Assembly: GCA_964016885.1 (NCBI GenBank)
Contig: OZ024761.1
Span: 25,730,001-25,794,000, forward strand
Length of the DNA stretch: 64,000 nt
Origin: Eledone cirrhosa
Taxonomy: Eukaryota
Reading direction: 5' to 3'
Shown here: positions 7,225-8,028 of the stretch, one piece after another
How positions within the stretch are numbered: the first letter of the stretch is position 1
Layout: each line of letters starts with the position of its first letter
Program-made: the position numbers and the translations under genes
The notes under the pieces: model-generated
Seen by the model: the letters and a program-made list of their open reading frames with translations, nothing else
Databases searched by the model: none
What the model was told of the DNA's origin: nothing

Positions 7225-8028
7225 TAAGGAATTTATATCTAGTAACATTTATATACACACAGATGCATATCAATACTAGCAAATATATAGGTTTTGTCTT
7301 ATTAACAATGTGGTTCAATGCATGGGGTTGCAGAACAATAATATGAGAGACGTAAAATAAGAAACTTATAAAATTAACTTACTTACTAAAAAATCACTTC
7401 CAACTAATTAGTTTCTGGAATGGAGTAAATATATTTTCCGAAGAAACACATAGAAAATCATTCCGTCATCAGGAAAGTCTTTTTCCGTATAGGTTTCCAG
7501 GCATAGCGAGGACACTGGAAACTTATTAAAAAAATAATTCAGTGGAATGGAAATAGCAAAGCGTGGACTGGATTCCAAGCCATTGAGAAAATCATTGCCT
7601 CCTCGTCTGTGGCAAATTCAAAAAGAATCAATCACGTGACATCGAGGTCAATCAGTGGAAAACGAGTGGTTATTAAGACAGCGGCCAGCCTACTACCATA
7701 GTAGAAGTCATGGCCAAATATTGCTCGACAAATGAATTGGAGATAATTATAAGGAATTTATATCTAGTAACATTTATATACACACAGATGCATATCAATG
7801 CTAGCAAATATATAGGTGTTGTCTTATTAACAATGTGGTTCAATGCATGGGGTTGCAGAACAATAATATGAGAGACGTAAAATAAGAAAATTATAAAATT
7901 AACTTACTTACTAAAACATCACTTCCAACGGAAAATATATTTACTCCATTCCAGAAACTAATTAGTTGGAAGTGATTTTTTAGTAAGTAAGTTAATTTTA
8001 TAATTTTCTTATTTTACGTCTCTCATAT
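7225..8028 (-). mobile_element. Retrozyme / mini-Penelope-like element: 525-bp unit with 180-bp terminal direct repeat and a 100-bp inverted end
   Basis: 7225-7404 is repeated at 7750-7929. 7929-8028 is the reverse complement of 7341-7440. Contains a hammerhead at 7396-7478. (TA)n on both sides. Confidence 0.75.
7396..7478 (-). ncRNA. Type I hammerhead ribozyme
   Basis: acuuuc CUGAUGA c-ggaaug...cauucc-a GAAA CUAAUUAG UU ggaagu: stems I and II pair, stem III is palindromic, triplet GUU. Confidence 0.75.

What the first reader, a model, noticed from the sequence alone, without database searches (positions are those of the whole stretch)
7225..8028. 525-bp unit whose repeat boundary coincides with the hammerhead cleavage site
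Read on the minus strand, the direct-repeat copy begins at 7929 with GUU-ggaagug. That is the NUH triplet and stem I 3' strand of the hammerhead found one unit downstream (7396-7478), within 3 nt of the predicted cut. This is what reverse transcription of a self-cleaved multimeric or circular RNA would leave. The terminal inverted segment (7929-8028) starts inside stem II. The unit is non-coding as far as I can see and has an extra hairpin at 7489-7526.
Basis: partly seen in the sequence, partly recalled or inferred. Interest (0 to 1): 0.85.

Follow-up and report, generated by a model that had tools for sequence, protein, structure and literature searches.

The report
Two-armed hammerhead retrozyme, 525-base unit
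This is one of hundreds of copies of a 525-base protein-free repeat with a predicted self-cutting RNA motif, likely pasted into TA microsatellites by a Penelope-type retrotransposon copying one RNA from both cut DNA ends; its boundary next to the predicted cut site is probably chance, because other copies break off at scattered points.

Summary
The anatomy is real: a 525-nt unit plus a partial copy starting at GUU, an inverted 100-nt arm, and a type I hammerhead with compensatory stem II changes in diverged relatives. The boundary reading fails. Genome-wide, 1 of 550 passes starts exactly at the predicted cut, and 501 of 549 run through it. Copy 5' ends are scattered truncations; at most a weak excess lies near the ribozyme. 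The fixed points are two 3' ends, 61 and 179 nt after the cut, both abutting (TA)n. Two-armed insertions pair one with the other (56 of 58 regular cases). Both arms and all tandem units of one insertion share their haplotype. A younger 558-nt sister family reaches 15 units. This fits a non-autonomous Penelope-type retrozyme, copied from one template primed at both target ends; the template is probably, not provenly, a circle. This copy has only one complete ribozyme and is probably a product, not a source. No autonomous partner was identified; cleavage and RNA are untested. It is a new member of a known kind. The scan reported the same two-armed layout before on other DNA, including this genome.

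The parts
7223..7929 (-). Arm A: 1.35 units (unit positions 348 to 529), variable 5' end at 7929, fixed 3' end A at 7223-7227
7227..7751 (-). One complete 525-nt unit (unit position = 7752 minus window position); 11 differences from the family majority
7752..7929 (-). 5'-truncated upstream copy (pseudo-LTR-like), starts at GUU, has no ribozyme core
7929..8028 (+). Arm B: inverted copy of unit 312-411, 1-nt overlap with arm A at 7929, fixed 3' end B at 8024-8028; lacks CUGAUGA
7396..7478 (-). Predicted type I hammerhead: stem I 7478-7473 with 7401-7396; CUGAUGA 7472-7466; stem II 7464-7459 with 7422-7417; GAAA 7415-7412; predicted cut between 7402 and 7401
   Evidence: sequence; covariation; cleavage untested
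7402..7413 (.). 12-nt palindrome forming stem III; predicted to pair between two ribozymes (duplex -10.8 kcal/mol)
   Evidence: invariant in the 10 aligned relatives, which were collected by this motif
7223..7340 (-). 118-nt 'tail' between the two fixed 3' ends B (7341) and A; conserved in relatives; includes a long predicted hairpin
7489..7526 (-). Hairpin just 5' of the hammerhead; function unknown
   Evidence: z -3.6; core stem present in 4 of 4 aligned units
7452..7452 (-). Unit position U300 in stem II: substitution hot spot, differs between passes of the same insertion in 17 of 53 insertions
7622..7640 (-). Conserved block with a CACGTG core; possible internal promoter element (E-box label recalled, untested)
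   Evidence: conserved in the 3 aligned units that cover it
7187..7226 (.). (TA)20 target microsatellite at end A
8025..10032 (.). TA-rich microsatellite array at end B

Best explanation
This is one insertion of a many-copy, protein-free 525-base hammerhead repeat (a non-LTR retrozyme) that was likely copied into a TA microsatellite by a Penelope-type enzyme, which would prime on one RNA, probably a circle, from both cut DNA ends. Shown: two fixed 3' ends (B, 61 nt after the predicted cut; A, 179 nt after), scattered 5' ends, A+B inverted pairs joined mostly by 1-13 shared bases, (TA)n flanks, tandem read-through of the cut without a scar, and one haplotype per insertion. Inferred: tandem copies are transcribed; ribozymes pairing through the palindromic stem III release a 525-nt monomer that a host ligase closes; a Neptune-type RT/GIY-YIG protein cuts (TA)n on both strands; one 3' end primes at A, the other at B; both copy round the circle until they fall off at about 3 events per kb; the two cDNAs are joined head to head by microhomology. 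In this copy arm A stopped 3 nt past the cut on its second pass, probably by chance. With a single complete ribozyme it probably cannot release a monomer.
For: Family: 1961 candidates, best scored copies 96-98% identical; 550 exact 28-mer passes. Of 173 arms in 107 loci, 94 end at A, 71 at B, 8 elsewhere. Regular two-armed inverted insertions: 56 A+B, 2 A+A, 0 B+B; sister family 17 of 17 scorable. TA run follows 86 of 90 A ends and 63 of 71 B ends; 44 of 65 junctions share 1-13 nt. Minor alleles shared: opposite arms 133 of 172, tandem units 94 of 127, different insertions 7409 of 77201; outside unit 299-305, 160 of 168 concordant. No scar at the cut: 162 of 162 and 161 of 161 passes unchanged. 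Sister arms reach 15 units; variants fixed in all passes of an insertion 18, partial 2, single-pass 24. RT plus GIY-YIG elements with a Cys-rich linker, the same TA ends and minimal hammerheads exist in the genome. Literature: PMC8557442, PMC11167929, PMC7229834, PMC4209133.
Against: No sequence link to any autonomous element sampled (8 elements, about 7 families, best z 2.3). The active fold of the single ribozyme is 2.5 kcal/mol above the minimum, and GUU plus a C.A mismatch depart from the canonical core. 8 of 9 predicted frog retrozyme dimers did not cleave in vitro (10.64898/2026.07.22.740005), and in the anole PLE uncleaved linear RNA was the main substrate (PMC11167929). Homogeneous arrays also follow from a homogeneous linear multimer or from later DNA-level expansion. 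The 118-nt tail is far longer than the published 30-40 nt. A 2-3-fold excess of 5' ends around the ribozyme in the fetched sample is not explained by a pure circle. 7 two-armed loci had an irregular arm and were left out of the A/B count.
Confidence: 0.62

Rival explanations
1. Same element and same twin priming, but the template is an uncleaved linear multimeric transcript; the hammerhead is conserved for another step (end processing, protein binding) and no circle is needed.
For: PMC11167929: ribozyme mutants did not affect insertion in vitro and no reads ended at the cut. Read-through without a scar and shared haplotypes fit a homogeneous multimer too. The core is non-canonical.
Against: 5' truncation can only shorten arrays each round, yet very young arms reach 15 units with insertion-specific variants in every pass, e.g. 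15 of 15 in L228 and 7 of 7 over both arms in L236; only 2 of 44 variants were partial.
Confidence: 0.24
2. Insertions start as 1-2 units and are lengthened afterwards by DNA slippage or unequal exchange (satellite growth); tandem length says nothing about the RNA.
For: Would also give homogeneous arrays; proposed for vertebrate retrozymes in the Discussion of 10.64898/2026.07.22.740005. One partial variant (6 of 16 passes in L228) shows some copying inside an array.
Against: The younger family (98-100% identical) has the longer arrays and the older one at most 3.3 units; both inverted arms are multimeric. Caveat: the sister arrays came from top-scoring hits, which favours long ones.
Confidence: 0.07
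3. One reading: the enzyme copies self-cleaved linear RNA, runs off at the cut, and that sets the repeat boundary.
For: This copy starts 2-3 nt from the cut; one copy, L138, starts exactly there; 8 ends at unit 346-353 against 2.8 expected, nominal P 0.008, and 29 at 337-375 against 13.8.
Against: 1 of 550 genome-wide; 501 of 549 run through, leaving about 3.5% ending at 339-350 after allowing for point changes (140 of 148 intact), equal to background; complete subset 5 of 97 against 3.1 expected, P 0.20; 0 of 42 sister-family 5' ends at the cut. The boundary includes bases 5' of the scissile bond, which a cleaved RNA lacks.
Confidence: 0.05
4. The unit is only the terminal repeat of an unsampled full-length Penelope-like element whose copies are mostly truncated.
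For: PLE copies are heavily 5'-truncated and carry hammerheads in their terminal repeats (PMC8557442, PMC4209133).
Against: 79 of 173 arms exceed one unit and run into another copy of the unit, not into an ORF. The PLE protein pieces inspected near copies (L100, L180) are separated from them by TA runs.
Confidence: 0.02

Closest known systems
Animal non-LTR retrozymes (Cervera and de la Pena 2020, PMC7229834; Li, Clavereau and Pollet 2026, 10.64898/2026.07.22.740005)
   Same: Short non-coding AT-rich unit with one type I hammerhead, dispersed monomers to multimers, co-occurring PLEs, proposed circular RNA template.
   Different: 525/558 nt (150-450 nt in the first paper, 51-972 in the second); 50-nt stem II, GUU triplet, C.A mismatch; the parts I read do not describe two fixed 3' ends, A+B inverted arms or per-insertion haplotypes; cleavage and circles shown there, untested here.
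Insertion footprint of EN+ Penelope-like elements, Neptune type (Craig et al. 2021, PMC8557442)
   Same: 5' truncation, partial tandem, adjacent inverted 5'-truncated copy, tail at one end only, (TA)n bias; Cys-linker RT/GIY-YIG elements with the same layout occur in this genome.
   Different: No ORF; tail 118-119 nt rather than 30-40; no detectable sequence link to the sampled autonomous families.
Poseidon PAc of the green anole (Frangieh et al. 2024, PMC11167929)
   Same: Two internal RT start sites downstream of a hammerhead; both target strands cut and extended; AT-rich target; predicted protein dimer.
   Different: Autonomous; start sites adjacent; no strand difference in start site reported, whereas here the two target ends use different sites almost without exception; hammerhead dispensable in vitro there.
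L1 twin priming (recalled, no call)
   Same: Two target ends prime on one RNA and leave an inverted 5' part joined by microhomology.
   Different: Here the second site is fixed, the arms overlap in sequence, and both can be multimeric.

Membership tests
Animal non-LTR retrozyme | Type I hammerhead in the unit | tested here: met
   Core motifs plus stems I-III; covariation in stem II. No Rfam hit.
Animal non-LTR retrozyme | Head-to-tail repeats of a few hundred bases, many loci | tested here: met
   79 of 173 arms longer than one unit, 8 longer than two; 550 exact passes.
Animal non-LTR retrozyme | No protein, low GC, no LTR organisation | tested here: met
   Stops in all frames; GC 27.5% in 6001-8000; no fixed 5' end. 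PBS and PPT were not searched separately.
Animal non-LTR retrozyme | 'Active' copy: two consecutive complete hammerheads | tested here: not met
   This copy has one complete motif. Other copies of the family do have two or more.
Animal non-LTR retrozyme | Self-cleavage of the transcript | not testable with these tools
   Needs an in vitro assay.
Animal non-LTR retrozyme | Linear and circular monomer RNA in vivo | not testable with these tools
   Needs northern blot and RNase R; only indirect genomic support.
Animal non-LTR retrozyme | Target-site duplication longer than 4 bp when present | tested here: inconclusive
   Both ends lie in (TA)n.
PLE-type insertion footprint | 5' truncation, partial tandem, inverted 5'-truncated arm | tested here: met
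PLE-type insertion footprint | Tail at one end only (two start sites) | tested here: met
   56 of 58 regular two-armed loci are A+B; length 118 nt, not 30-40.
PLE-type insertion footprint | (TA)n insertion bias | tested here: met
   149 of 161 A and B ends
Autonomous Penelope-like element | RT plus GIY-YIG ORF | tested here: not met
   None in the unit or the window.
Derivative of a specific autonomous PLE | 3' region homologous to a partner's terminal repeat | tested here: inconclusive
   No match in 40 of 150 scored GIY-YIG loci (10597 candidates); most were not examined.

The most novel reading that the evidence does not exclude
Each insertion is a fossil of one RNA circle copied in rolling-circle mode by a Penelope-type enzyme dimer, one half priming at site A and the other at site B, 118 nt apart. 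This would be direct genomic evidence for the circular-template model proposed for PLE tandems and retrozymes. The U300 hot spot would record a modified or structurally blocked base that the RT misreads on each lap.
Probability: 0.5. Interest if true: 0.65.

Novelty: new member of a known kind. Interest (0 to 1): 0.4.

Why it matters
The element class is known, and the headline claim (boundary equals cut site) does not hold. The family is still useful. How PLEs make tandem-plus-inverted insertions is stated as open in PMC8557442, and circular templates were proposed without genomic proof (PMC4209133, PMC7229834). Here one haplotype per insertion across both arms, strict A+B pairing and scar-free read-through give exact predictions: two start positions, a 525-nt RNA, and a circular-versus-linear contrast. 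These can be tested in the in vitro system of PMC11167929.

Tried and rejected
Rfam: no hammerhead hit at either threshold; miRNA hits only reflect the fold-back. Repeat finder swamped by TA arrays. First structure count had stem II off by one column and was redone. One Pfam accession was not in the library. Partner search: blastn of the unit against 40 GIY-YIG loci hit only independent diverged copies and one weak antisense match; a short-stem-II pattern gave 38 matches, and the 20 fetched loci showed no Neptune-like protein match; local alignment to 8 PLE 3' regions gave z at most 2.3. Sequencing runs: no RNA holder listed, which is no evidence on expression. Three runs of unknown kind from one sample are contigs: they show end B followed by TA and the head-to-tail join, cannot show RNA ends, and may not be independent of the assembly. 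A rolling-circle endless ORF (525 = 3 x 175) is rejected: stops in all frames. Linear unit folding is not exceptional (z -1.47); the majority unit folded as a circle gave -120.6 against -96.7 +/- 4.6 in 30 shuffles. A ligation scar at U300 is not favoured: the sister family shows no hot spot there in 6 insertions. Literature searches without a report of this family. Scan look-up by sequence found nothing.

Full report
Setting. The window lies on a chromosome-scale contig of a 3.0-Gb assembly rich in TA microsatellites. It looks to me like a cephalopod genome from recalled SINE motifs; that is untested. Unit positions below count along the minus strand: position = 7752 minus window position.

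Observation. The sequence is as described. Arm A (7929 to 7223, minus) runs from unit 348 through one full unit to position 4 of the next. Arm B (7929-8028, plus) is unit 312-411. They share one base at 7929, and both outer ends run into (TA)n. The hammerhead has stem I (274-279 with 351-356), CUGAUGA (280-286), a 50-nt stem II with a C.A mismatch at its base, GAAA, and a 12-nt palindrome (339-350) ending in GUU. Rfam does not detect it and its energy is ordinary. Ten relatives, picked by hand from 27 motif classes, keep the core and change 3 of 6 proximal stem II pairs on both sides; 95% of cells pair, and 0 of 500 shuffles reach the covariation score. The rows are related and were chosen for diversity, so this is support, not a probability. 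The single ribozyme's active fold is 2.5 kcal/mol above the minimum, and the palindrome can pair between two copies at -10.8 kcal/mol. This matches the dimer model of PMC4209133. No reading frame stays open.

Family. The unit gave 1961 candidates; 40 were scored, at 96-98% identity for full copies other than the window's own. I fetched loci from five searches and merged them into 108 loci. One older mosaic locus (L114) fell below 90% identity and was dropped, leaving 173 arms in 107 loci. 3' ends are fixed: 94 at site A (about 525+4), 71 at site B (about 411), 8 elsewhere. A TA run follows 86 of 90 A ends and 63 of 71 B ends as classed. 5' ends spread over the whole unit. Of 65 two-armed inverted loci, 56 are A+B, 2 A+A, none B+B, and 7 have an irregular arm; 40 loci are single A or B arms. 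Junctions share 1-13 nt in 44 of 65 cases, are blunt in 5 and have a gap in 16, one of which is two separate insertions.

(a) Genome-wide exact counts: 549 passes have the 28 nt after the cut preceded by the templated T, and 1 has another base. That one, L138, does start at the cut. Starts preceded by T by chance are hidden. (b) 501 of the 549 are also intact over 339-349. Point changes alone leave 140 of 148 intact, so about 3.5% end there, the same as the background of 3 per kb. (c) In the near-complete subset on C1 and part of C2 (97 passes recovered of the 100 listed), 5 end within 12 nt against 3.1 expected, P 0.20. (d) Against my reading: with ascertainment-adjusted risk sets, 8 of 167 ends fall at 346-353 against 2.8 expected (nominal P 0.008) and 29 at 337-375 against 13.8; the best scan window was elsewhere, at 487. 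(e) In the sister family 0 of 42 5' ends lie at the cut; the nearest is 5 nt 3' of it. So the ribozyme is at most a weak stopping or joining zone. The window's boundary also includes 2-3 bases upstream of the scissile bond, which a cleaved RNA would lack unless they were added without template.

One template per insertion. At 20 polymorphic sites, minor alleles are shared in 133 of 172 comparisons between opposite arms, 94 of 127 between tandem units, and 7409 of 77201 between insertions. Leaving out the double insertion L172 and the variable patch 299-305, 160 of 168 are concordant. Positions 350 and 351 are unchanged in 162 of 162 and 161 of 161 passes, which argues against jumps between cleaved monomers. 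A 558-nt sister family (about 67% identical; copies 98-100% alike) has the same ends, 83 and 202 nt after its cut. In 23 insertions taken from the top hits, arms reach 15 units and 17 of 17 scorable pairs are A+B. Outside masked homopolymers, 18 variants are fixed in every pass of their insertion, 2 are partial and 24 are single. Some of the 18 are subfamily alleles; four are unique to one insertion and one nearly so.

Mobiliser. A GIY-YIG search gave 10597 candidates, 150 scored; I inspected 40 loci. They include several RT plus GIY-YIG families with open frames up to 1096 aa and a Cys-x4-Cys-x2-Cys linker, the linker type that PMC8557442 ties to Neptune elements and microsatellite bias. They end in (TA)n, some with inverted arms, and some carry minimal U3-A8 hammerheads followed by two ends. 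None aligns to the unit's 3' part, so the partner is inferred by footprint only.

Mechanism. Shown: two fixed ends, TA targets, truncation, A+B inversion, read-through, one haplotype. Inferred: transcription of tandem copies, dimer-aided cleavage, host ligation (shown for other retrozymes in PMC7229834), double-strand cutting and extension from both ends (shown for PAc in PMC11167929), strand-displacing laps, microhomology joining. I put the element class and twin priming at about 0.85-0.9 and the whole model with a circle at about 0.6. The main rival is an uncleaved linear multimer. This copy has one complete ribozyme, and its three passes differ at four private positions; it is probably an inert product.

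Unexplained. U300 differs within 17 of 53 insertions, against a mean of 1.4% per site, to C, A and G alike. The rate does not track insertion age (7 of 26 young, 10 of 27 old; P 0.46), and 7 insertions carry the same non-T base in all passes. This suggests errors at the copying step that are then inherited. A sequencing artefact is not excluded, and the sister family shows no such site.

Prior knowledge. Papers seen: 10.64898/2026.07.22.740005, parts 1-3 of 5 (main text; supplements closed and may list related families); PMC11167929, parts 1-2 of 4; PMC4209133, parts 1-2 of 4; PMC7229834, passages and parts 2 and 4 of 6; PMC8557442, passages; PMC10886601, passages (not relevant). No supplements were read. 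Eight searches showed no description of this family; subscription journals and repeat databases were not searched. The scan's own notes report the same two-armed layout for other units in this and other genomes; they are unchecked and not independent support.

Verdict. A real, young, non-autonomous Penelope-type hammerhead retrozyme and a new member of a known kind. The boundary-at-cut claim is not supported as a rule. The value lies in the testable footprint of one template primed from both ends. Interest 0.4.

Noticed in passing
window 7452 (unit U300); Substitution hot spot in hammerhead stem II that differs between passes of one insertion (17 of 53), in all three directions and independent of age; possible RT misreading site or artefact.
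   Followed up: partly
L208-L247, e.g. L228:681-9196; G000:C5:61539218-61540893: Younger 558-nt sister retrozyme family, 98-100% identical copies, arms up to 15 units, same A+B layout with a 119-nt tail; 422 candidates.
   Followed up: yes
L034:539-1250, L114:1275-2928, L135:11-264, L147:406-672: Older relatives of the unit (76-87%) with compensatory stem II changes; L114 is a mosaic of several subfamilies.
   Followed up: partly
window 6620-6812: Another short repeat in (TA)n with a long fold-back; matches in dozens of fetched loci, several with the same inverted form. Probably a second PLE-type family.
   Followed up: partly
window 6852-7186: 335-nt repeat between TA runs, 83-93% identical full-length copies in about ten other loci.
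   Followed up: partly
window about 40840-40920, minus strand: Second type I hammerhead-like motif with long stem II and GUA triplet, unrelated in sequence.
   Followed up: no
L140:5700 and 6159; L149:538 and 1142; L146:6486; L128:25: Other hammerhead motifs: a 459-nt tandem unit with long stem II, an inverted pair, and two single motifs.
   Followed up: no
L139, L141, L142, L145, L155, L156: About six Neptune-like PLE families, one with a 1096-aa open frame; several carry U3-A8 minimal hammerheads with palindromic stem III and two alternative 3' ends.
   Followed up: partly
window 26857-26997: Two tRNA-like sequences back to back sharing base 26927; probably a tRNA-derived repeat in inverted arrangement.
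   Followed up: no
unit positions 487-526; The strongest cluster of arm 5' ends lies in the hairpin just before site A (scan-corrected P about 0.01-0.02), not at the ribozyme.
   Followed up: no
window 19635-20349: His- and Gln-codon-rich triplet repeats, possibly a coding exon.
   Followed up: no
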